From a virus, in UHGV virus genome UHGV-0214148: a stretch of 64,000 bases of DNA; one strand, given 5' to 3'. Shown piece after piece: positions 22,887 to 55,230 of this stretch. A program made the position numbers and the translations under genes. Each line of letters begins with the position of its first letter. Positions within the stretch are counted from its first letter, which is position 1. Below the pieces are notes generated by a model. It was given only the letters and a program-made list of their open reading frames with translations. It made no database searches and was not told where the DNA came from.

Positions 22887-22911
22887 TCGACAGCGAAAAA
22901 AAAAAACAGTA

Positions 22912-22953: not shown

Positions 22954-23484
22954 TTAGGACGTAAAACCGTCCAGCTCACCGTTGGTGGTGGCCAGGTCAA
23001 TACGATTATCAACAACCTTCGGCGTAATTACGAAAGTTGCCATTACACCTGGCTTATAACGGAGGTTCTTTTCAGTAACGGTACACGTTACCGTACGCAG
23101 AGTGACGCTATCGTGTTCGTCTTTCTGGTCTTCGGTGGTGTACTCAACGTCACCAGGTGCGATAGAGTCGTCAGGTTTTACTTTATTGATGTAAAACTGT
23201 AATCGGTCGCGTAGTTCGTTTTCTCCAGTCCAGAGAGCCAAATCGTCCGTTACCTCAATGCGTCCGACAACGCCAGGTTCCAGACGATCGTAATGCAGTT
23301 CGATTGCGCCTTTAAAATTTTCAGACTCTGTACGTGCGGTCATGGTAACTTTGGTATTTTTATCGCCCTTTTCAAGAGCGACAGGTTGACCAAAAGTTAC
23401 CTCTTTATCAGTGACCTGATGCGGTAGCTCTGTGTTAGCAGCATTATAAAGCGCAACTAACATCATCTGGTTAGTAGCTGCCAT
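22954..23484 (-). CDS. hypothetical protein, paralogue family A (176 aa)
   Basis: Shares NFKG..E.HY.RL and TNGELDGFT blocks with 23552..24082. Confidence 0.6.
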   Translation of the reverse strand: MAATNQMMLVALYNAANTELPHQVTDKEVTFGQPVALEKGDKNTKVTMTARTESENFKGAIELHYDRLEPGVVGRIEVTDDLALWTGENELRDRLQFYINKVKPDDSIAPGDVEYTTEDQKDEHDSVTLRTVTCTVTEKNLRYKPGVMATFVITPKVVDNRIDLATTNGELDGFTS

Positions 23485-23535
23485 TATCTTAAATCCTTAA
23501 AATGAAAGTTAAAGAAATATCGGGGGAGGTTACCA

Positions 23536-23544
23536 CCCCCCCCC
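23536..23544. repeat. C9/G9 homopolymeric tract inside a GC hairpin
   Basis: Nine consecutive C on the plus strand in the intergenic region about 50 nt upstream of the 23484 start. Confidence 0.6.
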
Positions 23545-23551
23545 GAATCAA

Positions 23552-24082
23552 TTACTCTTTAGGCGCTGGTGCGGTGAAGCCATCCAGTTCACCTTCCAAA
23601 CCGTTCAGTGCTACTTTCTCAATAGCTGGAGGGGTAACTTTATACGTCGCAACAGTACCTGGCAGGAACTTCAAGTGGCCAGCCACAACCGTTACCACGT
23701 AAATGGTTTTGCCTTCTTCTTCACGAGAGATAGTTTGCAGGTCGTTTTCACCGAACTCGTCATCGGTGTACCCTTTCTCAGCCATGGCTGCGTTAACTTT
23801 CGCCAGGATTTTCGTCGGTGAATCGAAATCGGTAGTAGGTGCAGTTACTTCAACTTCACCAACGATGTCGCAGGAAAGACGAGTATAGTGGAATTCTTTC
23901 TCGCCTTTGAAGTTCTGGCTTTCTGCCTTGGCGGTCAGAGTAATTTTAGTGTTGCGGCCAGCTTCTCCGGTGAACTCAGCGACAGCACTAAAATTAACAT
24001 CATTTACAGTCAGCTTAGAAGCAGTTTGGTTGTTTTTAGCAATTACAATCTCGATAAGCTGCTGTTGAAAAGTTTTAGCCAT
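23552..24082 (-). CDS. hypothetical protein, paralogue family A (176 aa)
   Basis: Start moved to ATG 24082 (MAKTF...), which has a GAGGT SD and gives the same length as its paralogue; the track start is 24118. Confidence 0.55.
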   Translation of the reverse strand: MAKTFQQQLIEIVIAKNNQTASKLTVNDVNFSAVAEFTGEAGRNTKITLTAKAESQNFKGEKEFHYTRLSCDIVGEVEVTAPTTDFDSPTKILAKVNAAMAEKGYTDDEFGENDLQTISREEEGKTIYVVTVVAGHLKFLPGTVATYKVTPPAIEKVALNGLEGELDGFTAPAPKE

Positions 24083-24222
24083 TGTTTTTACCTCGTAAGT
24101 AGTATGGGTGGTTTGCATAGTATTGTTCGGATTATAGAAGTGTTGTTAATAGTTATGACAGACAGCAGTAAGGGTTGTCTGTAAAATTATTATTTTTTAA
24201 CTTTTTATAGAAGGGTGAAAAC

Positions 24223-28715: not shown

Positions 28716-28735
28716 AGGGGTGGTTTACCACCCCT
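28716..28735 (-). terminator. intrinsic terminator
   Basis: Stem AGGGGTGG/CCACCCCT. Confidence 0.45.
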
Positions 28736-31346: not shown

Positions 31347-31372
31347 CCCTCACCTAAGTAATATATATCTGA
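31347..31372 (-). promoter_or_regulatory. conserved 26-bp promoter-like element, copy A
   Basis: CCTCACCTAAGTAATATATATCTGA, nearly identical to copies at 35726 and 55204, each 47-76 nt upstream of a minus-strand start codon. Confidence 0.45.
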
Positions 31373-33510: not shown

Positions 33511-33519
33511 GGGGGGGGG
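33511..33519. repeat. G9/C9 homopolymeric tract, intergenic
   Basis: Nine consecutive G on the plus strand between the stop at 33534 and the start at 33484. Confidence 0.6.
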
Positions 33520-35725: not shown

Positions 35726-35752
35726 CTCTCTCCTAGGTAATATATATCTGAG
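35726..35752 (-). promoter_or_regulatory. conserved 26-bp promoter-like element, copy B
   Basis: CTCTCTCCTAGGTAATATATATCTGAG, 47-73 nt upstream of the 35679 start and just downstream of terminator 35766-35796. Confidence 0.45.
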
Positions 35753-35765
35753 AAAAAATATAAAA

Positions 35766-35796
35766 ACCGTAGGATGGACTAAGTCCATCCTACGGT
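35766..35796 (-). terminator. intrinsic terminator
   Basis: 14-bp perfect stem ACCGTAGGATGGAC/GTCCATCCTACGGT with a 3-nt loop. Confidence 0.65.
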
Positions 35797-35801
35797 TTAA
35801 A

Positions 35802-37922
35802 TTAAATAACTACCCAGCTTTTGCCATCGGAACCAATCTGCATTAGCGTAATACTTTCATTGGTCTCAATGGGTTTGGCAAGACCTTCCGTCCCACTCTT
35901 TGGAGTGATGAGAACGTTTGAGTTTTCCGGTTTAACGATGATCTTACCAGCCTTATTTGCCACGATCTGTATATTTCTACCCACACTATATTCTAGATCA
36001 GGAATAGTAAGTTGGCCGCCACGGTTGGTGGCTGGGAAATACACATAAGACGACACATCTTCCTCAGATAACACTATACCACCAGAATCACGATTGACCG
36101 AGATCTCAAACTTAGAAATATCGATATCGTAGGCAGTAACTTTCGTAATATCTGTCAGAACCAATTCGTTCAAATCGGTATTAGCTGGACTGTTCGCCAG
36201 ATCAAACGGAGTGCCATTCTTGCCGTCAAGCACAGGTGTGACTTTGATTTTATTGTCACCCGGATAAATGATTTCAAGCGTATGCCAGTTATTATCGTAT
36301 GCACCAAAAGTTCCTAATTGCGCATTCTGCTTTTTATGATGCATCAGATAAAGATTCGTAGCGTCGGTCTGTAAGAAAAAAGACATTAGGTACGGGTTCG
36401 TCTTAGCCACACCAGCGTCAGCAAGTGTAGTACCAGAAGGTAGGTCGGACGCGGAAATACGCCAATAAAGTCCTAATCCGAAACGATCTGCTGCTAAATC
36501 ACCTTTTAGTCTAAAAGTAACGGTCAGACGTCCACCGTAACGTATCATGTCCGCAGCAGTCGCCATTGACTTAGTTACATTCCAAGGTTTCATCGTTACA
36601 GCCTTTCTTAATTCGACGAAATGCCCGTTTCCATCCTCAGTTTTTTGCACGGTTACGTTACAATCAACGATATTGTTCCAACCTTGCCCTTTCAGGGAAC
36701 CATCTCCACGACGACCGTTATAACCAACAGACTCTACTAATGGGGTATAGCTTCTTACCACATTCATATTGTCTTTGGAGCTCTTAGTGTCGTTCTTCGT
36801 CAGGAACATTGCACCAATCGCTGTTCTTGATAATATCTCGGCAGCTATTCTCTCTGAGATAATACCGCGTCGTGCCCAAGAACTGAAATGACTATTCCTT
36901 TCTGCAGACGTCCAGTTATCAGAACTACGGGAGGCAGCACCGTAATAGGCAGCACCAGTGATATTAGGATCGTCAGTGGGATCATTAGTCGGAACATGTT
37001 GGCCATTATCGTCGTACATGAATGGAACAAAAAAGATATTTTTTTGTTCGTTGTTACGATAATTACCGTATATGGTTTCATATTGAGCAGGATATTTTTC
37101 CTTCCAATAATAGGTAGTGTCCCCACAGATCCATGGTACTTCGGCGGTGGCGTACTCGGGCATCTGAGAGAGATGGTCAGAGAGATCAGTTCGGAAACGC
37201 TCTACCATTGCGTTAAATAACGCTGGTTGTTGTGCGTATTGTACTTTAGTCAGATCATACTCTCCCTGCATCCACACTACAGCCAAGAGTTTATTTTTAG
37301 GATTAACTTCCAGGGCTTTTTTGGTCCGGCTAACTAAATCTTTATAAAGCGGTTTGTCCACCCCCCATACCGATGACGCCGCAGAGGCTCCTGTGGCTTC
37401 ATCGAAGGTACCTTCTGCACCACCCGTGAAAGCAGAACCGCCGCGTGCGCAGGGTACTAGTAAGATACCGGCGTTCTTAGGAATATACGGGAGAAGACGC
37501 TTCGCGATATGAAGACCTTGACCCACACATCCGTATTCACCTTTGTCTAAATTGGCATTGGGATGCGAGTATTTGGACATATCTTGCACGTCGTGCAGAC
37601 AGTGATCCGCTGGAATGACGTCGTTATATTTACAATCAGCCCCATTAGGCGTTACCTTCGCACGGCGCGCCATCTGTTTAATTCGCGGATCGGGAGCGTC
37701 CAACGTCGCCGGTAGAGGCAACCCTTCACCATAACTCATCGCATTAGATTGCCCGGCTATAGGAATCACGAAGTAATACTCCGGCTCCGTCGTGCCCTGA
37801 AGTTTTGCAATATCAATTTTATATTCTTTTTCTTCCTTAGAAAGAAGAACTAACGCACCTTTGAGATCGCCAGAGAAATTGTCGAGTTCATGGATACGTT
37901 TCTTTCCAATTGGCTGACTCAT
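35802..37922 (-). CDS. tailspike-like protein with sialate-O-acetylesterase (SASA/SGNH) domain (706 aa)
   Basis: GQSNAMSYG and WMQGEYD blocks typical of the SASA esterase family; N-terminal roughly 35 aa resemble the N-terminus of the 1479-aa fibre. Confidence 0.7.
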   Translation of the reverse strand: MSQPIGKKRIHELDNFSGDLKGALVLLSKEEKEYKIDIAKLQGTTEPEYYFVIPIAGQSNAMSYGEGLPLPATLDAPDPRIKQMARRAKVTPNGADCKYNDVIPADHCLHDVQDMSKYSHPNANLDKGEYGCVGQGLHIAKRLLPYIPKNAGILLVPCARGGSAFTGGAEGTFDEATGASAASSVWGVDKPLYKDLVSRTKKALEVNPKNKLLAVVWMQGEYDLTKVQYAQQPALFNAMVERFRTDLSDHLSQMPEYATAEVPWICGDTTYYWKEKYPAQYETIYGNYRNNEQKNIFFVPFMYDDNGQHVPTNDPTDDPNITGAAYYGAASRSSDNWTSAERNSHFSSWARRGIISERIAAEILSRTAIGAMFLTKNDTKSSKDNMNVVRSYTPLVESVGYNGRRGDGSLKGQGWNNIVDCNVTVQKTEDGNGHFVELRKAVTMKPWNVTKSMATAADMIRYGGRLTVTFRLKGDLAADRFGLGLYWRISASDLPSGTTLADAGVAKTNPYLMSFFLQTDATNLYLMHHKKQNAQLGTFGAYDNNWHTLEIIYPGDNKIKVTPVLDGKNGTPFDLANSPANTDLNELVLTDITKVTAYDIDISKFEISVNRDSGGIVLSEEDVSSYVYFPATNRGGQLTIPDLEYSVGRNIQIVANKAGKIIVKPENSNVLITPKSGTEGLAKPIETNESITLMQIGSDGKSWVVI

Positions 37923-37925
37923 CTA

Positions 37926-38438
37926 CTACTCTCCAAAAGTTAAGATTTTATTGTCAAACGTCAACACGACAGAATCATCACCGATGCCACACGGTGTTTC
38001 ATCTGGGCCGAAAACCACCACGGAGAACTGTCCTTTATAAGCGATGGAATTTGGAGCGATGCTAAGCGTTACCGCGTCTTTACCTACCGTGAACGACTGG
38101 TCGGTTAAATCGTCGGTTTGTAAGTTAGCACCACAAACGGCATTGACGGATTCGATAAGATCGTGTGCATTAAACCCTTCACCTATTACTTTTACCAGAA
38201 TAGGTTGTTGGTTTAACCACCGCTCTGCGGTTAAACGGTTGTAGTAGATTTGCAACGTTCTGTTTCCAGGACGTTTAATCTTTACAATGGCAGTGGAGTC
38301 ACGATCCATTTCATCACTGGTTTTTACGTCACTGACTTCAACCTCGTTCTCTTGCAAGTCAAGTTGGAGGTCATGGTTAACCAGTGAAATAACCATGTTA
38401 AGTGAAGTTAGTGATAAATCTGGTGTGAATTTTTCCAC
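37926..38438 (-). CDS. hypothetical protein, paralogue family B (170 aa)
   Basis: GTG start with TAGGAGGT SD; shares PDLSL...NHD...YY.RL...CG.NLQ..DL and C-terminal CGIGDD.VLTF blocks with 44527..45087. Confidence 0.55.
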   Translation of the reverse strand: MEKFTPDLSLTSLNMVISLVNHDLQLDLQENEVEVSDVKTSDEMDRDSTAIVKIKRPGNRTLQIYYNRLTAERWLNQQPILVKVIGEGFNAHDLIESVNAVCGANLQTDDLTDQSFTVGKDAVTLSIAPNSIAYKGQFSVVVFGPDETPCGIGDDSVVLTFDNKILTFGE

Positions 38439-38492
38439 GTATGTTTACCTCCTAAGGTTGGGGGTCATAAAATATTGACTAAAAAACATTCA

Positions 38493-38501
38493 CCCCCCCC
38501 C
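38493..38501. repeat. C9/G9 homopolymeric tract, intergenic
   Basis: Nine consecutive C on the plus strand about 55 nt upstream of the family-B gene start at 38438. Confidence 0.6.
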
Positions 38502-38535
38502 ACGATTATTTTCAACCGCTTTCAGTTGAAAATAA

Positions 38536-38979
38536 TTAGCTAATTCTCAAATCACGCAGTGCGCCTGTCGATTTCATCGCGTTTTGGAACGCGCCACTGA
38601 TGTTATTAGTCCAGTAATAATGCTGTCCGTTAATAACCTGCTGATAGGTCAGTGCGCAGGTGTTACCACCTAAATTTACGGTAATGTTAGAGGCTCTGCC
38701 TCCTTGTAAGTAAACCGCTAAAGTAGGCTTTGCGTTGGCAACTATCGTCGTTAACTGTAACTCAATACCTACTAAAGTTCCCACCCCGCAGTTACCCGCG
38801 TTTTGAATGGTTCCCTGATTTTTCTGGTTTAACGGCCAGCTTGGTCCTACCGCGCCCCATTTCTTACCTAAAGAATCGCTATATGCAGCGGTTGCAATTT
38901 TACAGCCCATAGATCTTCCCACCATTTGACTCATCATAAAAGGTCTACCCAATCCTAATTTACTACCAGCAGCGCTCAT
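38536..38979 (-). CDS. adhesin-like Gly-rich protein, paralogue family C (147 aa as an intact ORF)
   Basis: Paralogue of 39298..39843; the conserved N-terminal extension and its SD/ATG lie upstream in another frame (see 38980..39044). Confidence 0.55.
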   Translation of the reverse strand: MSAAGSKLGLGRPFMMSQMVGRSMGCKIATAAYSDSLGKKWGAVGPSWPLNQKNQGTIQNAGNCGVGTLVGIELQLTTIVANAKPTLAVYLQGGRASNITVNLGGNTCALTYQQVINGQHYYWTNNISGAFQNAMKSTGALRDLRIS

Positions 38980-39044
38980 CCATTGTTCGCCCGTTTCGTT
39001 CTTAGCCGAAGAACCGACCCACGAACCGGTTACCCCCCCCCCAT
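38980..39044 (-). other. out-of-frame N-terminal extension of the family-C gene with its own SD and ATG, interrupted at a G-tract
   Basis: AGGAG 7 nt upstream of ATG 39044..39042. As sequenced the frame reads M-G-G-G-stop; one extra G, or two fewer, gives MGGGVTGSWVGSSAKNETGEQWMSAAG, which matches the paralogue's MGVASGWVGSSAKAVTGQEWMSVAG. Confidence 0.55.
39033..39042. repeat. C10/G10 homopolymeric tract at the start codon of the family-C gene
   Basis: Ten consecutive C on the plus strand; the last C is part of the minus-strand ATG. Confidence 0.7.
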
Positions 39045-39056
39045 CGCGATCTCCTG

Positions 39057-39287
39057 TTAAGATTTTCTACATGTTATTGAATCGAAAGCACCACGCCCAA
39101 CCCAACGCCAATTATAATGATGATCAGCTTTATAAAGTGTGTATCTGCCCTGCTTTTTTACGTCGAAAATATTGATCGTAGTCTCTTCATTACCCAGCTT
39201 AGCTGTGCCGTAACATACAGGTTCGGGTAGTTGTTGACATCCACTTACTGTAAGCAATGCGAAACCCAGTAAAACTTTTCTTAACAT
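39057..39287 (-). CDS. small lipoprotein (76 aa)
   Basis: Signal peptide with lipobox TVSGC; mature part about 58 aa; lies between the two family-C genes. Confidence 0.6.
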   Translation of the reverse strand: MLRKVLLGFALLTVSGCQQLPEPVCYGTAKLGNEETTINIFDVKKQGRYTLYKADHHYNWRWVGRGAFDSITCRKS

Positions 39288-39297
39288 CTTTCTGTCC

Positions 39298-39843
39298 TTA
39301 GACTACACTTATTGAAATTGTTGCACCGTTCTGATTAAATAACCAGTTGGTTGCCGTCTTAGCCTCATAGCGCCGGACGCCGTTACTGTAAGAGTACGGT
39401 AGAAAAGTAATCTTCGTTCCGTTAAACGAAAGCGTAATATTCTGATTTGGTCCATTAGTTAGGGCCATGTAGATAATACCAGTATTTTGTACTTGGCTAA
39501 GATGTGTGACGCTACAACCCAAGATCGAACCTGACACCGAACCGGCCGCATTTTGTGTTTGCACACGATTCGATACTGTAGAACCAGCACCCGTTGTTGT
39601 AGAGTTGTTCGAATACCCCCCATACGTATTTGTAATAGGAACCCACTGCGTGTTCGTAGCCTGCACCAAAACAACATAGGTTGATCGGCCTACAACGAGT
39701 TTAAGATCCTCTACGCTACGCCCGACCATCTGCGACATGTTAAATGGTGTGCTCAGTTTAAGCTTATTACCTGCCACACTCATCCACTCCTGACCGGTTA
39801 CTGCCTTTGCTGAGCTTCCAACCCAGCCGGATGCTACCCCCAT
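39298..39843 (-). CDS. adhesin-like Gly/Ser/Thr-rich protein, paralogue family C (181 aa)
   Basis: ORF length; paralogy with 38536..38979 including the N-terminal extension. Confidence 0.6.
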   Translation of the reverse strand: MGVASGWVGSSAKAVTGQEWMSVAGNKLKLSTPFNMSQMVGRSVEDLKLVVGRSTYVVLVQATNTQWVPITNTYGGYSNNSTTTGAGSTVSNRVQTQNAAGSVSGSILGCSVTHLSQVQNTGIIYMALTNGPNQNITLSFNGTKITFLPYSYSNGVRRYEAKTATNWLFNQNGATISISVV

Positions 39844-39861: not shown

Positions 39862-39881
39862 TAGGGGGATTACTCCCCCTA
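39862..39881 (-). terminator. intrinsic terminator
   Basis: Stem TAGGGGGA/TCCCCCTA. Confidence 0.5.
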
Positions 39882-39884
39882 TCT

Positions 39885-42800
39885 TTAATTCCCCTTGAGT
39901 TCTTTAAGCTCTTGGCGAAGAGTTTTCATGCCTTCTACTAACAACGCAATAACACCATTGTAATTTAGACGTAAACGTTTTTCGCCTGAAATGGCATCAT
40001 CATCCTCAGACACAAGCTCAGGTAACGCTTCTAGAGCGTCCTGAGCAATTAGACCTACAGAAGTCTGCCAGCCGTCGTCAGGATGCTGAATTTCGTACAA
40101 ATAACCGGTTAGTAACTCTAACCGATCCAAAGCCTTATCCAGCTTCACCAGATTACGTTTGTTACGACGGTCAGAACGAATCTGTACGTCGTTAAACGAA
40201 CCGTTACCGTTGCCAGTAACGTTATGTCCAAAGTTTACTTGGCCGTTAGAATTATTAAAAGACAACGGGCGTAATCCGTTCCAGGAACCCGCTGCGGCTT
40301 GTCCGGCGTCGGTTACTAAGAAATAGGTATTGGCACCGTCGTTACGTAAAATAAAACCGTAGGTACCGTAAGCGATTCGAAAATCAGGGTATTTAGTGGC
40401 CAATTTACCATTAACGGTTAAATCACCGCCTACAGTACCGCCCCCTGACGGTAACGCGCCCACTTCCGCAGCAGTTGGCTTGTTTCTCGTATTGTAAGCA
40501 CGACGCCAGCCTGGTGAGTATCCATCGCCGTTAAATACGTAGATAAACTCCGCATTAGTGAGTGCTCCGCCGACGCTCGTCGTTGTGGCGGTCGTTATAC
40601 GGATCGTGTAGTTGTTTGTGCTGTTGCCGTTACTAATGACTTCTATAACGGCCCCAGCTAACGGAATGACACCACAACCCGTCTCGCTGTGAGGTATGGA
40701 CGCACTGGCGGCATAAGCCCACGCACAGCGAGCAACCCACGATCTTGTGGTAAATGCGCCGTTATTTTTCAATAACGTCACTAGCTGTGCTGTAGTTATT
40801 GCACCGCCATTAGCGCCAGTTTCTAACCAACCACTAGGTGATGCCGGACAACCTATTTCGGCTGGCCCTAACGATATATTTCTAGTGCCATCAAACGCAA
40901 TACCATTGATGGTTCTTGCGGTTTGCAACTTTGTTGCCGTGGCTGCGTTTCCGGTGGTCGACTGATTCCCTGTTTGGTTTACTCCAGGTAAGTTGATGTC
41001 TTTAGTACCATCAAAAGCTACGCCACCTATATTTCGCGCAGTCTGGAGCTTAGTCGCAGTCGCAGCATTCCCCGTCGTCGATTGGTTACCGGTTTGGTTC
41101 ACACCGGGCAGACTAATGTCTTGCGAACCATCAAAGTTAATACCACCGATCTTACGTGGCGTTTGTAACTTAGTAGCGGTCGCTGCATTACCTGTCGTAT
41201 TCTGGTTACCTTGCTGGTTAACCCCCGGTAAATTGATATCCCCAGTACCGTCAAAGGTAACGCCCCCGATTCTGCGAGCAGTTTTCAGTTTCGTCGCGGT
41301 AGCAGCGTTACCAGTAGTATCTTGATTACCGGTGGTATTTACACCAGGAATACTATCACGGGCAGTATAAACTTGTGCCCAATCTGACCACGGCGCATCC
41401 GCTGTATCGCGTCGACTACGAATATAAACGGGTGCGTGCGCACCACTCGTGCCCGACCAACCGATTAACAGTTCACCTTCACCTAGCGCAGTAGAACCGC
41501 CCAAATGCAGCAAGTTACCATAAGCGGTCGGATAACCGTTATTGTAAACTTCGTACATCTGAATACCGGGTGTACCTTTGTTTGAACCGGTTAGTGCAGT
41601 AACCCGACCACGACCTACCAGGGTGTTGATATTGATGTCAGCAGAACCATCGAATCTCACACCGTTAATATTTCTGGCAGTTTGAAGTTTAGTGGCTGTC
41701 CCGGCATTACCCGTGGTGTTTTGATTACCCTGTTGGTTAACACCTGGGAGGTTAATATCAGCACTACCGTCGAAAGCGACTCCACCAATTCTACGTGCCG
41801 TCTTTAATTTCGTTGCGGTTGAAGCATTGCCTGTTAACTCGCCTGCTAACCCTTTTGCAAAGGTCTGTTTTTCTGCCCAGGTGTGTGCTGCATTCAATAC
41901 AGGCATCTGTCGTGGTGTAATCGTACGACTACCTTTCTCACCAGCGATACGTACTGCAAAGAATCGATAGTTGGCAGTAGACACCGTACTACGCCAAACC
42001 AACATACTCCGGCCTGATGTAGCGCCATCTGATGGACCAACCAGAATGCTAACTAAGTTACCGTCAATAACACCCCAATCCATTCCCGTAGGAATGTTTT
42101 TCATGGTGTTAAGCGGCGTACAGATTAACTCACCCGGTTTAAAGTCATAGGTTTGCCAGTCTAAAGGATCAACATTCGCACGTTCACCGCCGATACCTAA
42201 TACCAGCGGAAGCGAATACGATGTGAAAACCTCACGCCAATCGCTCCAAGCGTTACCCGTACGGATACGTTGGAATTTACGACCTTTAGTTTCTGTACCC
42301 GTACCGTATGTAGTATAATTCTGTTCGACCCCTGTACCGTCTAAGCGTAAGGTAACTTCACAAACGCCTAATATGGTTTCACCAGAAGAACCGGTAAGTG
42401 GACCGTTAGTTGCTTCACCAGTGACACTGAAACGTCCCGGTTTAACGAGATCGTTAAAATTGGCTTTAAAGAAAGCACCGTCAGTCTGATAACCAACCTG
42501 AATCCAATCTTCCCATTGCGGGTTTGATGAATCCCACGTTGCGGTCAAACCACGAACATACATCGTACCACGACGTGTGGTGTATCGCTGCAACCGTCCG
42601 AAAAGACCACCTTCCATTACTTCTAGTACGCCTTGCGCACCGCCACCTTCTTCAGGGTAATGTCTGCTAAAAACAGCCAGCGAACTGCTTGAGTTTCGCC
42701 AGTTACCCATATGCTCAGCGCCACCCAAACTGTTCAAGTCTATAGCGGTAGATAATGGACGTACACCAGTAGTTACCATTCTCCACGGCGACCAGGGTCC

Positions 42801-44324
42801 ATTGGCACCATTCCACTCGCCACTCAGCATACGGTTGTACACGTTACCATTACGACAGGTAAAACGCTGTGCACCACTGTAATTACCGGCTTTATACACT
42901 TCCAGATAACCGACTGCACCGTCTTCTGGGAAATGTTTTGCCATCGACGCATTGGTTGACGTCGACTTAGCCCACGTTCCTGTGTAATTGGCATCAGGAG
43001 CAAATGTGTTAATATCAGCATCTACAGGCATTTCGCCACGGAAACGTAGATAGGTGTCAGGAGACAGACCGATATTGCGAGCAAACGTTTCTTTATCTGG
43101 GATATCAGCGCCGTTAGAGTTTTTCTGTAACGCGCCATTCGCTTTATCTACAGTGGCTTTTAATCCCAAGAAATTGATGATATCCGCAGTTGACCCTTTC
43201 GCTAACAAGGATCTGGCCGTTTCTGTAAAATCCGTTAATCCGACTTTATTACTGCCAGTGAAATACATGAGTTTATTTGCCGCTGTGGTGACTGCGGCAA
43301 TGGCGGTGAGCAACGGACTGAGAGGTTGTTTCTGCGCAAGTTCCCCAGTAATCGTTGTTGCGAAGTTAGGGTCATTACCTAACGCCTCAGCTAATTCCGC
43401 TAAGGTATTTAACGTCTCGGGTGAAGAACCAACCAGTTCCGCAATCGCGTCACGCACCCAGGCCGTTGTGGAGATGCTCGTGTCGTTCGAGTCCTTCGGG
43501 GGTGTTGGGGATGACGGTTTACCCGTAAAATTCGGCGAATGTTTATTGGCTTTTAACTGTAATTCGTCATTCAGCTGTTTAACCGTGGACGGTGTGGCGG
43601 CCTCAGTCACGGATTCGCTAGTCAGTGTATCGTTAAGTTTAACGATACCTTTACCGGTCGTACTAGCGTCGATTAAGCCCTGCGCAGCGATTTTCTCCGC
43701 ACGTAAGGCAGCTGACTCCGAGCGTGTTGCTGCGCCTTCTGAACTTTCTTTATCTTTCGCGACCTGTGCAGCAATCTTCTCCACTGCGCCCTTACTGGCC
43801 TCAACTGAAGCCGCAGTATTCTCGACACCGGTAGCCGTCTGTTGGACTTGTCCGGCCTGTTGCGTAACCGTTTCTGCTTTCTTAGTTACATCAGCCGCTG
43901 CAGCCGTCACCGATTGTTCGCTTGTAGCGACAGCTTGAGCTTTCTCATTTACCGACTGTAATACAGTATCTACGGCAGTTTTCGCGGCTAAAACTTCAGC
44001 GTGTTTTTTGTTAACCTCAGCAGTTTTAGTGGCAACGGTTCCCGCTTGCTCGCTAACGGTGGAAGCTAACGTGTCAGTTTGTTGCTTCGCGGTTTCTGCT
44101 AAGTCTTTTGCTTGTGTGGCTTCTGTTGCAGACTGTTGTGATTTGGCCGCAGCCGTTTGTGCGTCAGCAACCGCGTTTCTGACGGTGTCAATATCCGCAA
44201 CAATCTCGCGGACAGGTAACTGATAATCCCTTTCGTCTTTCGAAAAAAGTAAAACGCCTTCACCGATATCCCCGGTGTATGGACGTAAATCGTGTAAACG
44301 AATTTTCTTTACCGCTTTAGCCAT
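39885..44324 (-). CDS. long tail fibre with coiled-coil shaft, tandem fibre repeats and C-terminal intramolecular chaperone domain (1479 aa)
   Basis: Ala/Gln/Thr-rich coiled coil; about six copies of a roughly 40-aa repeat (NTTGNAATATKLQTAR.IGGV.FDG..DINLPGVNQ.GNQ); C-terminal SDRRNKRNL...LTGYLYE resembles peptidase-S74 chaperone domains. Confidence 0.85.
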   Translation of the reverse strand: MAKAVKKIRLHDLRPYTGDIGEGVLLFSKDERDYQLPVREIVADIDTVRNAVADAQTAAAKSQQSATEATQAKDLAETAKQQTDTLASTVSEQAGTVATKTAEVNKKHAEVLAAKTAVDTVLQSVNEKAQAVATSEQSVTAAAADVTKKAETVTQQAGQVQQTATGVENTAASVEASKGAVEKIAAQVAKDKESSEGAATRSESAALRAEKIAAQGLIDASTTGKGIVKLNDTLTSESVTEAATPSTVKQLNDELQLKANKHSPNFTGKPSSPTPPKDSNDTSISTTAWVRDAIAELVGSSPETLNTLAELAEALGNDPNFATTITGELAQKQPLSPLLTAIAAVTTAANKLMYFTGSNKVGLTDFTETARSLLAKGSTADIINFLGLKATVDKANGALQKNSNGADIPDKETFARNIGLSPDTYLRFRGEMPVDADINTFAPDANYTGTWAKSTSTNASMAKHFPEDGAVGYLEVYKAGNYSGAQRFTCRNGNVYNRMLSGEWNGANGPWSPWRMVTTGVRPLSTAIDLNSLGGAEHMGNWRNSSSSLAVFSRHYPEEGGGAQGVLEVMEGGLFGRLQRYTTRRGTMYVRGLTATWDSSNPQWEDWIQVGYQTDGAFFKANFNDLVKPGRFSVTGEATNGPLTGSSGETILGVCEVTLRLDGTGVEQNYTTYGTGTETKGRKFQRIRTGNAWSDWREVFTSYSLPLVLGIGGERANVDPLDWQTYDFKPGELICTPLNTMKNIPTGMDWGVIDGNLVSILVGPSDGATSGRSMLVWRSTVSTANYRFFAVRIAGEKGSRTITPRQMPVLNAAHTWAEKQTFAKGLAGELTGNASTATKLKTARRIGGVAFDGSADINLPGVNQQGNQNTTGNAGTATKLQTARNINGVRFDGSADININTLVGRGRVTALTGSNKGTPGIQMYEVYNNGYPTAYGNLLHLGGSTALGEGELLIGWSGTSGAHAPVYIRSRRDTADAPWSDWAQVYTARDSIPGVNTTGNQDTTGNAATATKLKTARRIGGVTFDGTGDINLPGVNQQGNQNTTGNAATATKLQTPRKIGGINFDGSQDISLPGVNQTGNQSTTGNAATATKLQTARNIGGVAFDGTKDINLPGVNQTGNQSTTGNAATATKLQTARTINGIAFDGTRNISLGPAEIGCPASPSGWLETGANGGAITTAQLVTLLKNNGAFTTRSWVARCAWAYAASASIPHSETGCGVIPLAGAVIEVISNGNSTNNYTIRITTATTTSVGGALTNAEFIYVFNGDGYSPGWRRAYNTRNKPTAAEVGALPSGGGTVGGDLTVNGKLATKYPDFRIAYGTYGFILRNDGANTYFLVTDAGQAAAGSWNGLRPLSFNNSNGQVNFGHNVTGNGNGSFNDVQIRSDRRNKRNLVKLDKALDRLELLTGYLYEIQHPDDGWQTSVGLIAQDALEALPELVSEDDDAISGEKRLRLNYNGVIALLVEGMKTLRQELKELKGN
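40850..41340 (-). repeat. tandem roughly 120-nt coding repeats (fibre repeat units)
   Basis: Near-identical DNA units seen directly; further copies lie around 41640-41830. Confidence 0.6.
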
Positions 44325-46474: not shown

Positions 46475-47167
46475 TTAGTAATCCTCTTCCTGATTCACTA
46501 CCGATTGGATACGGGATGCGACTTCGTTAGTGTCCAGGTCAGTTTCGTCTACCTTATCCACAAGTTTCTGTACTTTACGTACATGTGATTCGGTAATATC
46601 AAAACGACCACGATCGGCTAACAACAACGTTACCATGTCCTTACGTGTAACCATCAGTTCTTCTTCAGGTAAGTGTAAGGATTTGTCTAACAGACCCGAA
46701 TGCATGAAGTTTTCCAGTAAGCGTTCTTCCCCCTGGTCGAAATCATAACGTTCGTTAGGTGCAGCAACGAAAGCATAACCGAAGTAGTTTTCTTCCGTCT
46801 CACGTAGCGACTTGATGATTTTGTCACCGTGTTGACAGAAATCACTTAACGTGTAGTCGTCAAGCGTTGCCACGACGGTTTCTGCTTGCACACCATTATC
46901 TGTTTCGTACAGATGCGCAACCCACAGTTTCCAGTTACGTGGCTCGTCAAACAAACCACCGATTAACATATCGGTAGCCGCCATGCGCATACGCGGTGAC
47001 GTTGTAAACTGGAAACCACGACCTGCGTACGGACCGATAGGACGAATAGAGCTACCGACGAAAGTAATGCGGTTTAGCGCATTTTCAGCAATGGTGTGCG
47101 CAGTACGGTTAGCAGCGGCTTTCGGATTATACTTTTTGTTACGCGGTTTCTTTTGTTTGGTAGCCAT
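46475..47167 (-). CDS. hypothetical protein with basic N-terminus (230 aa)
   Basis: ORF length. Confidence 0.55.
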   Translation of the reverse strand: MATKQKKPRNKKYNPKAAANRTAHTIAENALNRITFVGSSIRPIGPYAGRGFQFTTSPRMRMAATDMLIGGLFDEPRNWKLWVAHLYETDNGVQAETVVATLDDYTLSDFCQHGDKIIKSLRETEENYFGYAFVAAPNERYDFDQGEERLLENFMHSGLLDKSLHLPEEELMVTRKDMVTLLLADRGRFDITESHVRKVQKLVDKVDETDLDTNEVASRIQSVVNQEEDY

Positions 47168-49883: not shown

Positions 49884-49956
49884 TTTAGATTACTCCATTT
49901 AGTTAAGTGAGAATTCTCACATAGATGAAATATATCTTAAATTTTTTAGACAGCCA

Positions 49957-54071: not shown

Positions 54072-54089
54072 GGGGAACCGAAGTTCCCC
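54072..54089 (-). terminator. intrinsic terminator
   Basis: Stem GGGGAAC/GTTCCCC with loop CGAA; A-rich flank. Confidence 0.5.
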
Positions 54090-55203: not shown

Positions 55204-55230
55204 CTCTCACCTAGGTAATATATATCTGAG
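55204..55230 (-). promoter_or_regulatory. conserved 26-bp promoter-like element, copy C
   Basis: CTCTCACCTAGGTAATATATATCTGAG, 50-76 nt upstream of the 55154 start; terminator 55246-55267 lies immediately upstream. Confidence 0.45.

What the first reader, a model, noticed from the sequence alone, without database searches (positions are those of the whole stretch)
38493..38501. Intergenic C9/G9 tract upstream of the family-B gene that precedes the esterase tailspike
G9 on the coding strand about 55 nt upstream of the GTG start at 38438, between a short hairpin and the SD. It is placed where a change in length could affect a promoter spacer or the 5' UTR of the operon encoding the family-B protein and the tailspike.
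Basis: seen in the sequence. Interest (0 to 1): 0.5.

Follow-up and report, generated by a model that had tools for sequence, protein, structure and literature searches.

The report
Length-variable poly-G before phage tailspike genes
A run of nine G's in front of a tailspike gene pair of an uncultured giant (about 225 kb) enterobacterial phage is real, forms one arm of a conserved RNA hairpin, and differs in length (7 to 13) between otherwise near-identical phage genomes; this makes it a slippage-prone tract of the kind used for phase variation, but an effect on gene expression is unproven.

Summary
The G9 tract (window 38493-38501, G on the coding minus strand) is confirmed. It is one of only four G/C runs of 7 or more in the window, all 9-10 long, against about 0.1 runs of 9 or more expected. 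The phage belongs to an uncultured, roughly 225-kb SPN3US-like jumbo clade. The tract lies in a 97-nt gap between a gp38-like adhesin gene and a DUF7941 gene that precedes a SASA-esterase tailspike.

In about 60 related contigs the tract sits at the same place. Its length is 7, 8, 9, 10, 11, at least 12, or 13. It varies among contigs whose flanks are about 99.7% identical, while interrupted versions (GGGGTGGGGG) are constant. Assemblies often break at it.

The tract is the 5' arm of a conserved sense-strand hairpin closed by a C4-6 run just upstream of the SD. No sigma-70 promoter uses it as a spacer, and folding models show no clear effect of length on SD access.

Best reading: this is a slippage-prone homopolymer that grew out of a G-rich hairpin arm, with a small or neutral effect. 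Neighbouring coding tracts (adhesin start 39033-39042; the esterase gene in sister clades) behave as ON/OFF frameshift switches.

This is a new member of a known kind.

The parts
38493..38501 (-). G9 homopolymer (the finding); 5' arm of hairpin 2
   Evidence: The homologous tract in relatives is G7-G13.
38460..38501 (-). Hairpin 2: G run, an A/U-rich inner stem (AAUGUU/AAUAUU), then the C5 run 38460-38464; it ends 6 nt before the SD
   Evidence: With the named structure, 93% of cells pair, against 47-66% in slid controls. The sense RNA is more stable than the antisense in 11 of 12 lineages.
38505..38536 (-). Hairpin 1 (AUUAUUUUCAAC...GUUGAAAAUAAU), directly after the stop codon of the adhesin gene
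   Evidence: One pair shows changes on both sides (GC/AU/CG).
38448..38453 (-). Shine-Dalgarno AGGAGG, 9 nt before the GTG start at 38438
   Evidence: It is conserved in the alignment.
37926..38438 (-). DUF7941 ('family B') gene, 170 aa; homologous to the N-terminal part of longer virion/tail proteins
   Evidence: The SPN3US homologue is a virion structural protein that precedes tail fibre genes.
35802..37922 (-). SASA-esterase tailspike-like protein, 706 aa (SASA + DUF6645)
   Evidence: It has no G tract here (KLQGTTEPEYYF). Sister clades have ELQ-GGG-VTEPDYYF encoded by G7-G11.
35764..35798 (-). Strong intrinsic terminator that closes the transcription unit (16-bp stem plus T run)
   Evidence: It is followed by the promoter-like motif at 35738-35748.
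39033..39042 (-). G10 tract that begins with the G of ATG 39044-39042 of the second gp38-like adhesin. At this length the reading is MGGG-stop. G11 or G8 would restore a full-length adhesin.
38536..38979 (-). Second gp38-like adhesin ORF, which lacks its first ~22 codons because of the frameshift at the G10 tract
   Evidence: profile positions 21-40 of Gp38_N only.
23536..23544 (-). G9 tract, the 5' arm of a terminator-like hairpin between two DUF7941 paralogues
33511..33519 (-). C9 (coding strand), 26 nt upstream of ATG 33484; only C4 in relatives

Best explanation
The tract is a slippage-prone (hypermutable) poly-G homopolymer. It forms the 5' arm of a conserved sense-strand RNA hairpin in the intercistronic leader of the DUF7941 + esterase tailspike genes of an uncultured SPN3US-like jumbo phage.

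Shown here:
- The tract is non-random.
- It is conserved in position.
- It is the pairing partner of a C4-6 run just upstream of the SD.
- It changes length (7-13, mode 9-10) between genomes whose flanks are almost identical.

Inferred:
- The changes arise by strand slippage during phage DNA replication.
- The tract arose when a G-rich hairpin arm (GGGGG / GGGGGAGGG type) crossed the slippage threshold and expanded to the ~9-11 equilibrium seen at all such tracts in this clade.
- Only about 5-7 G can pair, so extra G's are structurally redundant. Length changes are therefore tolerated and tune expression only weakly, if at all.

The tract is one of a set of G/C tracts concentrated in the receptor-binding module. 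The members inside coding sequence (the adhesin start at 39033-39042, and the esterase gene in sister clades) act as frameshift ON/OFF switches.
For: Non-randomness: 4 G/C runs of 9-10 and none of 7-8, against about 0.1 runs of 9 or more expected.

Positional conservation and length spectrum:
- G7: L008
- G8: L028
- G9: window and 8 contigs
- G10: 15 contigs
- G11: L059, L060
- at least 12: L033
- G13: L009

Hypermutability relative to the flanks:
- P0016 group: 14 of 21 pairs differ in tract length at 0.28% flank mismatch.
- P0007 group: the interrupted GGGGTGGGGG is identical in 6 of 6 contigs at 0.29% flank mismatch.
- P0028 group: the intergenic tract is 9/11/11/10/10 while the coding G10 in the same five contigs is constant.
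- Window clade: 9, 10, 10, 9.
- Contigs begin in or within 17 nt of the tract in 5 of the 9 contig starts seen within 2.5 kb upstream (L019, L020, L033, L034, L037).

Hairpin:
- RNAalifold and RNAfold place the G run opposite the C run in every lineage.
- 93% of cells pair, against 47-66% in slid controls.
- Sense RNA is more stable than antisense in 11 of 12 lineages, because of G.U pairs.
- L011/L012 carry a minimal G5 version with a perfect stem.

Origin from hairpin arms:
- Tract 1 is GGGGGAGG-GTAA-CCTCCCCC in L040/L045 and G10 in L041-L047.
- Tract 2 is C4 in relatives and C9 here.

Weak functional leverage: modelled SD accessibility is 0.27-0.42 for n = 0-15, with no trend.

Coding neighbours switch frame:
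- Adhesin start: G5 or G8 ON, G9 or G10 OFF.
- Esterase gene: G7 or G10 gives 707/708 aa; G9 or G11 gives split genes.
Against: - No read-level data. Length differences between assemblies could be inflated by homopolymer sequencing error. Contig breaks at poly-G can also come from Illumina chemistry rather than from real heterogeneity.
- The hairpin is supported by conserved pairing and one-sided changes only. No pair shows a compensatory change on both sides.
- The long tract is kept in at least five diverged lineages, whereas tract 2 is lineage-specific. That pattern could mean selection for the long, mutable state, that is, a real regulatory role that the thermodynamic model cannot see.
- Transcription start sites and processing sites are unknown.
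Confidence: 0.55

Rival explanations
1. True regulatory contingency locus (rheostat). Tract length sets the amount of DUF7941 + esterase tailspike made, as in the uspA1-type upstream G(n) tract. It would act through mRNA stability or processing at the hairpin, read-through, or translation initiation. A phage population would then hedge its bets on tailspike dosage.
For: - The tract is kept long in many diverged lineages and is polymorphic at near-zero flank divergence.
- It lies in the receptor-binding module next to coding tracts that clearly switch genes ON and OFF.
- In the window fold, extra G's extend the helix onto the CCUU just 5' of the SD.
- There is precedent: the uspA1 G(n) tract 29 bp upstream of the ORF gives low versus high mRNA at G9 versus G10 (PMC7302503).
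Against: - Modelled SD accessibility is almost flat across n = 0-15.
- Lineages with G5 or with interrupted tracts keep the same downstream genes.
- The same 9-11 length distribution is seen at unrelated tracts, which suggests a mutational equilibrium rather than a length chosen by function.
- There are no expression data.
Confidence: 0.25
2. One reading: the tract sets the spacing between the -35 and -10 elements of a host sigma-70 promoter for the operon.
For: - A TTGAAA hexamer lies in the 3' arm of hairpin 1, upstream of the tract.
- A -10-like hexamer (AATAAT / CATAAT / TATAAT / TAGAAT) directly precedes the tract in most lineages. This would put a start site inside the tract rather than put the tract in a spacer.
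Against: - The scan found no promoter with the tract in its spacer, and promoter-like sites are not enriched (23 found against 28 in shuffles).
- The sequence downstream of the tract has no acceptable -10.
- SPN3US-like phages use their own RNA polymerases, with TATG-type or AT-rich promoters (PMC7598289).
Confidence: 0.03
3. The tract is real, but its length variation is technical: homopolymer sequencing or assembly error. The true length would be fixed.
For: - Illumina reads degrade in and after poly-G.
- Several contigs break at the tract.
- Most differences are of plus or minus 1.
Against: - Interrupted tracts of the same total length are constant in 6 of 6 contigs.
- The coding G10 is constant in the same five contigs in which the intergenic tract is 9/10/11.
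- Lengths of 7 and 13 also occur.
- Coding tracts are mostly found at in-frame lengths.
Confidence: 0.1
4. Recombination junction: the G tract and its conserved hairpin act as a linker at which receptor-binding cassettes are exchanged. This is not exclusive of the other readings.
For: - L004 is L003-like up to about -60 (88-96% identity) and L001-like from about -50 (98%). This places a breakpoint at the tract.
- Homology between the window and L014 ends at about -600, which is the G10 tract at the adhesin start. There the window carries an extra adhesin + cor cassette.
Against: - Only two cases were found.
- Gene boundaries are the usual mosaic joints in phages whether or not a homopolymer is present.
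- No mechanism could be tested.
Confidence: 0.1
5. The G run is a Shine-Dalgarno mimic for a 14-codon upstream ORF (ATG 3-4 nt after the run, TAA inside AGGAGGTAA). Translation of this ORF would open the hairpin and couple to the GTG start.
For: The uORF is open in the window, L001 and L005-7 lineages and always ends at the same TAA (read from the sequences).
Against: The uORF is reduced to Met-Phe-stop in the P0004, P0007, P0016 and P0028 lineages. It is absent in L003, L011 and L012.
Confidence: 0.04

Closest known systems
Moraxella catarrhalis uspA1 upstream G(n) tract (graded phase variation)
   Same: Both are poly-G tracts of 8-12 on the coding strand, a few tens of nt upstream of the ORF of a surface-recognition protein. 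Both are length-polymorphic between strains (PMC7302503: 29 bp upstream; G9 low and G10 high in some strains).
   Different: In uspA1 the dependence of mRNA level on length is measured and the gene is bacterial. Here the tract is in a phage, probably inside a polycistronic transcript, as one arm of a hairpin, and no expression effect is known.
Fletchervirus (Campylobacter phage) hypermutable polyG tracts in receptor-binding protein genes (Sorensen et al. 2021, cited in PMC12633550 and PMC10877375)
   Same: Both are phage-borne G7-11 tracts concentrated in the receptor-binding module that generate subpopulations. The coding tracts found here (adhesin start; esterase in sister clades) are the same in kind.
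   Different: The tract of this finding is intergenic and cannot frameshift anything. The host range (Enterobacteria), the phage type (SPN3US-like jumbo phage) and the GC content (45% against 26%) also differ.
Phage contingency loci in T2/T4 and other phages (Gomez, Barrick, Waters 2025 preprint, PMC12633550)
   Same: Both are homopolymer repeats in phage genomes that mutate by slippage. That work notes a few intergenic cases.
   Different: Those repeats are mostly 6 or more nt in ORFs and were reported as under-represented in tail fibre genes. Here the tracts are long (9-13), of G/C, few in number, and clustered in the receptor-binding region.
Promoter-spacer homopolymers (Neisseria porA/opc, Bordetella fim, Haemophilus hif); from general knowledge
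   Same: Both involve an intergenic homopolymer whose length changes by slippage.
   Different: Those tracts lie between defined -35 and -10 elements or activator sites of host RNA polymerase promoters. No such elements bracket this tract.
Ordinary intercistronic hairpins / intrinsic terminators of this phage and of SPN3US
   Same: All are G...C-clamped stem-loops in gene gaps. Window examples on the minus strand are 39864-39879, 28717-28734 and 54072-54089. SPN3US has a terminator hairpin at the homologous position.
   Different: Hairpin 2 has no U tract after it, it abuts the SD, and its G arm is expanded far beyond its partner.

Membership tests
Contingency locus (hypermutable simple-sequence repeat) | Homopolymer long enough to slip (about 8 or more G/C) and not expected by chance | tested here: met
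   G9 here. About 0.1 G/C runs of 9 or more are expected per window; 4 are observed.
Contingency locus (hypermutable simple-sequence repeat) | Tract length varies among closely related genomes much faster than the flanks change | tested here: met
   Lengths 8/9/10 (P0016 group), 9/10/11 (P0028 group) and 9/10 (window clade), with flanks about 99.7% identical in the P0016 group and about 98-99% identical in the window clade. Interrupted alleles are constant.
Contingency locus (hypermutable simple-sequence repeat) | High-frequency, reversible switching within a clonal population | not testable with these tools
   This needs reads or plaque lineages. The only indirect hint is that contigs break at the tract.
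Contingency locus (hypermutable simple-sequence repeat) | A change in length alters expression of the associated gene | tested here: inconclusive
   Modelling only: SD accessibility is 0.27-0.42 with no trend for n = 0-15. No expression data.
Promoter-spacer phase variation (porA / fim type) | Tract lies between the -35 and -10 hexamers (16-18 nt spacing) of a sigma-70 promoter | tested here: not met
   No such pair was found in the scan, and promoter-like sites are not enriched.
Promoter-spacer phase variation (porA / fim type) | The gene is transcribed by host sigma-70 RNA polymerase | not testable with these tools
   The phage is SPN3US-like. That group uses its own RNA polymerases (PMC7598289). 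This is an inference only.
uspA1-type upstream G(n) rheostat | G(n) tract within tens of nt upstream of the ORF, on the coding strand | tested here: met
   54 nt separate the tract from the GTG start, and 39 nt separate it from the SD.
uspA1-type upstream G(n) rheostat | mRNA or protein level depends on n | not testable with these tools
   No transcript or reporter data are available.
Fletchervirus-type polyG switch in RBP genes | Tract lies inside the ORF, so that length changes shift the reading frame (ON/OFF) | tested here: not met
   The finding's tract lies in the 97-nt gap between ORFs. The feature is met by the neighbouring tract at 39033-39042 and by the esterase tract in sister clades.
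Intrinsic (rho-independent) terminator | G+C-clamped stem-loop | tested here: met
Intrinsic (rho-independent) terminator | Run of U immediately 3' of the stem | tested here: not met
   The stem is followed by AACCUUAGGAGG, and the terminator scan does not list it.
Known RNA families (Rfam 15) | Match to a curated covariance model | tested here: not met
   No hit at the gathering threshold in the whole window. No hit at E of 1 or less in 38380-38600.

The most novel reading that the evidence does not exclude
The receptor-binding module of this uncultured enterobacterial jumbo-phage clade is a multi-locus contingency system. Coding poly-G tracts switch an alternative gp38-like adhesin and the esterase tailspike ON or OFF. 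The intergenic tract of this finding acts as a rheostat that sets the dose of the DUF7941 adaptor and tailspike through its mRNA hairpin. Every burst would then contain particles with different receptor-binding outfits.
Probability: 0.2. Interest if true: 0.7.

Novelty: new member of a known kind. Interest (0 to 1): 0.5.

Why it matters
Hypermutable homopolymers as a bet-hedging device are well established in bacteria. In phages they are known only for Campylobacter Fletchervirus and, very recently, T-even phages.

This work shows the same signature in an uncultured clade of roughly 225-kb SPN3US-like phages found in Shigella and Salmonella assemblies and in metagenomes:
- the tracts are few, long, and of G/C;
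- they are clustered in the receptor-binding region;
- they are length-polymorphic at near-zero flank divergence.

Two practical consequences follow. First, gene calls around these tracts are unreliable: split esterase genes, a truncated adhesin, and contigs that break at the tract. Second, host range in this clade may vary within a lysate.

The intergenic tract offers a clean test of whether a phage uses a non-coding homopolymer to tune tailspike dosage.

Tried and rejected
1. Sigma-70 promoter with the tract as spacer: no such site was found.
2. Known RNA family: no Rfam hit.
3. Length-dependent occlusion of the SD: the partition-function model for n = 0-15 shows no trend.
4. Compensatory covariation for hairpin 2: pairing is conserved, but no pair changes on both sides. 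The structure therefore rests on conservation, on one-sided G.U/A-U changes and on the sense-over-antisense stability.
5. Upstream ORF with the G run as its SD: not conserved across clades.
6. Other copies of the hairpin core in the window: none at 3 mismatches or fewer.
7. Exact-flank search in IMG/VR: none. A core-motif search returned only three contigs already in hand.
8. A scan of GTDB genomes with the DUF7941 alignment confirmed no locus.
9. An exact-protein look-up for the gene after tract 2 found nothing. Relatives were obtained from IMG/VR instead.
10. hhalign of the shallow DUF7941 alignment against the other small genes was uninformative. The paralogy of 22954-23484 and 23552-24118 rests on Pfam/PHROG hits.
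11. No visible association, across the nine P0016 contigs, between intergenic tract length and the ON/OFF state of the esterase coding tract.

Full report
**1. The observation**

On the minus (coding) strand the window reads ...gaaaataatcgtGGGGGGGGGtgaatgttttttagtcaatattttatgacccccaaccttaggaggtaaacatacGTG. The G9 occupies 38501-38493, the SD AGGAGG occupies 38453-38448, and the GTG start is at 38438. The tract lies in a 97-nt gap after the TAA (38538-38536) of the preceding ORF.

The window contains only four G or C runs of 7 or more:
- C9 at 23536-23544
- G9 at 33511-33519
- C9 at 38493-38501
- C10 at 39033-39042

There are no runs of length 7 or 8. From the window's own G|G and C|C transition frequencies, about 0.10 runs of 9 or more are expected. 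In 200 first-order Markov simulations the mean was 0.12 and the maximum was 1.

**2. Genomic setting**

Reading along the minus strand, the gene order is:
- a 1479-aa long tail fibre (39885-44324);
- a full-length gp38-like adhesin (39298-39843);
- a Cor-like exclusion protein (39057-39287);
- a second gp38-like adhesin ORF that lacks its N-terminus (38536-38979);
- the gap with the tract;
- a 170-aa DUF7941 'virion structural protein' (37926-38438);
- three nt later, a 706-aa protein with SASA esterase and DUF6645 domains (35802-37922);
- a strong intrinsic terminator (35798-35764).

At the DNA level the window matches almost nothing in the phage collection. The DUF7941 protein is 29-36% identical to virion proteins of SPN3US, SEGD1, Asesino and related jumbo phages. 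In SPN3US the homologue precedes the tail fibre genes and has an ordinary terminator hairpin with a T run upstream, with no G run.

Close homologues come from contigs of 220-228 kb and from Shigella flexneri and Salmonella enterica assemblies. The element therefore belongs to an uncultured SPN3US-like jumbo-phage clade of Enterobacteria.

**3. Comparative evidence on the tract**

Protein-anchored searches yielded about 60 loci. A G tract sits at the same place, directly after a conserved AATC and before TGAA(A)TG. The lengths are:

| Length | Loci |
|---|---|
| G7 | L008 |
| G8 | L028 |
| G9 | window, L002, L005, L016, L029, L031, L032, L036, L058 |
| G10 | L001, L004, L006, L007, L014, L015, L017, L018, L023, L030, L035, L037, L057, L061, L062 |
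| G11 | L059, L060 |
| at least 12 | L033 (contig starts inside the tract) |
| G13 | L009 |

Interrupted or short forms also occur:
- GGGGTGGGGG: L021, L022, L024-L027
- GGGGGAGGGG: L013
- GGAGGGGG: L003
- GAGGGGAGGGGG(G): L052-L056
- G5: L011, L012

The element is absent from L010. All of this is read.

The variation occurs at almost no flank divergence:
- Among seven contigs that encode the identical DUF7941 protein P0016, 14 of 21 pairs differ in tract length, while 1.4 kb of flanks differ at 0.28% of sites.
- The seven P0007 contigs have the same flank divergence (0.29%) and show no length differences. Six carry the interrupted tract and one carries G10.
- In the P0028 group the intergenic tract is 9, 11, 11, 10, 10, while a G10 tract inside the esterase gene of the same five contigs is constant.
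- In the window's own clade, whose flanks differ at about 1-3% of sites over 3 kb, the lengths are 9, 10, 10, 9.

These two internal controls (interrupted alleles, and a coding tract in the same contigs) argue against pure sequencing error.

Of the nine contigs that begin within 2.5 kb upstream of the gene in the P0004, P0007 and P0016 sets, five begin in or within 17 nt of the tract (L019, L020, L033, L034, L037). This fits read-level heterogeneity. It could also reflect Illumina's weakness at poly-G.

**4. What the tract is part of**

RNAalifold and single-sequence folds place the G run opposite a C4-6 run that ends 6-9 nt before the SD. Between them is an A/U-rich inner stem (GAAAUG.../...CAUUUU). 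A second hairpin lies directly after the stop codon of the adhesin gene.

With the structure written out on eleven distinct lineage sequences, 93% of cells pair, against 47-66% when the 3' partners are slid by 1-3 columns. No pair shows a change on both sides, so covariation proper is lacking.

L011 and L012 carry a minimal perfect version, GGGGGAUAAAAU...(G/A)UUUUAUCCCCC. The sense RNA is more stable than the antisense in 11 of 12 lineages because many pairs are G.U. That points to a structure in the mRNA rather than a DNA cruciform.

G...C-clamped hairpins are common in the gene gaps of this phage (39864-39879, 28717-28734, 54072-54089, 23522-23544). Most are followed by U runs, like terminators. 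This one is not.

**5. Transcription signals**

No sigma-70-type promoter has the tract in its spacer, and promoter-like matches in 30-46 kb are not enriched (23 against 28.3 in shuffles). A -10-like hexamer (AATAAT, CATAAT, TATAAT, CGTAAT, TAGAAT) directly precedes the tract in most lineages. If used, it would place a start inside the G run rather than make the run a spacer.

Jumbo phages of this group transcribe with their own polymerases. Where known, their late promoters are a TATG at the start site, with no spacer architecture (PMC7598289).

The window has a recurring motif, TCAGATATATATTACCTAGG, at four gaps. Three of the four copies follow a terminator hairpin with a T run, and all are followed by a small hairpin (35738-35748, 31359-31369, 55216-55226, 49926-49936). 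It is absent from the finding's gap. The DUF7941 and tailspike genes are therefore probably co-transcribed with the fibre and adhesin genes, and the two hairpins are intercistronic. This step is an inference.

**6. Does length matter?**

Only 5-7 G can pair with the pyrimidine arm. In a partition-function model of the window's leader with n = 0-15 G, the mean unpaired probability of the SD stays between 0.27 and 0.42, without a trend. Lineages with G5 or interrupted tracts keep the same downstream genes.

All long G/C tracts of the clade, coding or not, centre on 9-11. This looks like a mutational equilibrium rather than a length set by function.

The origin of such tracts can be seen directly:
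- Tract 1 is GGGGGAGG-GTAA-CCTCCCCC, a perfect 8-bp hairpin, in L040 and L045. It is G10 in L041-L047 and G9 in the window, with contigs again breaking at it.
- Tract 2 is C4 in four relatives and C9 only here.

I therefore rank 'hairpin arm that crossed the slippage threshold; length changes tolerated, effect weak or nil' first (0.55). A true uspA1-like rheostat comes second (0.25). The persistence of the long tract in at least five diverged lineages is the main argument for the rheostat.

**7. Neighbouring tracts that do switch genes**

The G10 at 39033-39042 starts with the G of an ATG that has a good SD (AGGAGA, 5 nt upstream). As it stands the reading is ATG GGG GGG GGG TAA. One more G, or two fewer, would give MGGGVTGSWVGSSAKNETGEQWM... 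in frame with the 147-aa ORF. That would restore the first half of the Gp38_N domain, which the ORF lacks.

In relatives the same start reads:
- ATGGGGGTA (G5, ON) in most;
- G8 (ON) in L002;
- G9 (OFF) in L008.

In the P0016, P0028 and L013 clades the esterase gene carries ELQ-GGG-VTEPDYYF encoded by a G tract:
- G10 or G7 gives 708/707-aa proteins;
- G9 or G11 splits the gene into 45 or 61 aa plus 663 aa.

The window's esterase has CAGGGCACGACG (QGTT) there, with no tract. These are the same in kind as the Fletchervirus polyG switches in receptor-binding genes (cited in PMC12633550).

**8. Mosaic joints**

L004 is 88-96% identical to L003 up to about -60 and 98% identical to L001 from about -50. 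The breakpoint therefore falls at the tract. The window and L014 are near-identical from about -550 onward. They diverge at about -600, which is the G10 tract at the adhesin start, where the window carries an extra adhesin + cor cassette. Two cases do not establish a causal role.

**9. Comparison and verdict**

The tract works like, and passes the testable criteria for, a hypermutable simple-sequence repeat: length, non-randomness, and polymorphism far above the flank divergence. Switching within a population and an effect on expression could not be tested.

It is not a promoter-spacer tract, not a coding frameshift switch, not a canonical terminator, and not a known Rfam family. The closest analogues are the uspA1 upstream G(n) tract (PMC7302503) and phage polyG/contingency tracts (PMC12633550).

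It is a new member of a known kind, in a phage group where this has not been described in the papers I could search. Interest is moderate at 0.5. The tract itself may be nearly neutral, but it flags a receptor-binding module full of mutable tracts in an uncultured enterobacterial jumbo phage.

Noticed in passing
window 39033-39042 (with ATG 39042-39044 and ORF 38536-38979), minus strand: A G10 tract starts at the G of the start codon of a second gp38-like adhesin. At this length the reading is MGGG-stop. G11 or G8 would give a full-length adhesin. Relatives have G5 or G8 (in frame) or G9 (out of frame). This looks like a frameshift ON/OFF switch that is OFF here, or a decaying gene made redundant by the adhesin + cor cassette inserted upstream.
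   Followed up: yes
L013 4967-4976; L028-L037 at +961 from the DUF7941 start; L058-L062 at +962: Sister clades carry a G7-G11 tract inside the esterase tailspike gene (ELQ-GGG-VTEPDYYF). G7 or G10 gives an intact 707/708-aa protein. G9 or G11 splits the gene. The window's esterase has no tract at this site.
   Followed up: yes
window 23536-23544 (hairpin 23522-23544), minus strand: A G9 tract forms the 5' arm of a terminator-like hairpin between two DUF7941 paralogues. Relatives have either the perfect hairpin GGGGGAGG-GTAA-CCTCCCCC or G10, and two contigs break at the tract. L039 has the loop inverted (TTAC instead of GTAA).
   Followed up: yes
window 33511-33519: A C9 tract on the coding strand lies 26 nt upstream of ATG 33484 (171-aa gene, phrog_8180). 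Three of four IMG/VR relatives have only C4 or CCAC at the corresponding site (the fourth has an unrelated upstream sequence), so this is a lineage-specific expansion.
   Followed up: partly
window 35738-35748, 31359-31369, 55216-55226, 49926-49936 (minus strand): A recurring motif, (TC)AGATATAT(A/T)T(T/C)A(CCTAGG), appears in four gene gaps. Three of the four copies follow a terminator hairpin with a T run, and all are followed by a small GTGAGAG...CTCTCAC-type hairpin. It is probably a phage-specific promoter and resembles the AT-rich early-promoter motifs of phiKZ-like phages.
   Followed up: partly
window 39057-39843 compared with L014/L015 2396-2402: The window carries an extra gp38-like adhesin plus a Cor-like superinfection-exclusion gene between the long tail fibre and the second adhesin. 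The nearest relatives lack this cassette. The first 135 nt after the G10 tract are 96% identical to the unrelated 109-kb Escherichia phage CMS-2020a.
   Followed up: partly
window 22896-22906 (A11 on the + strand); L039-L048 at +578: An A/T homopolymer between convergent genes is T10 in most relatives, T9 in L048, and below 9 in L040 and L045. It is also length-polymorphic.
   Followed up: no
window 24128-24136, 2278-2286, 47123-47131 (minus strand): TATAATCCG occurs three times. Two of the copies are in gene gaps: one 10 nt before ATG 24118 with no SD, and one in the divergent gap 2229-2296. It resembles the (T/C)ATAATCG that precedes the G tract of the finding and may be a second promoter-like motif.
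   Followed up: no
L021-L027 about 610-640 nt upstream of the DUF7941 start; L012 3375-3383; L006 3383-3392: Upstream of the second adhesin, some relatives have a hairpin GGGG-aggtca-C9-11 whose C arm varies (9, 10, 11). A G6-7 or G10 run lies 2 nt before the ATG, where it acts as the SD. Gene callers give 167-aa or 175-aa products depending on these lengths.
   Followed up: partly
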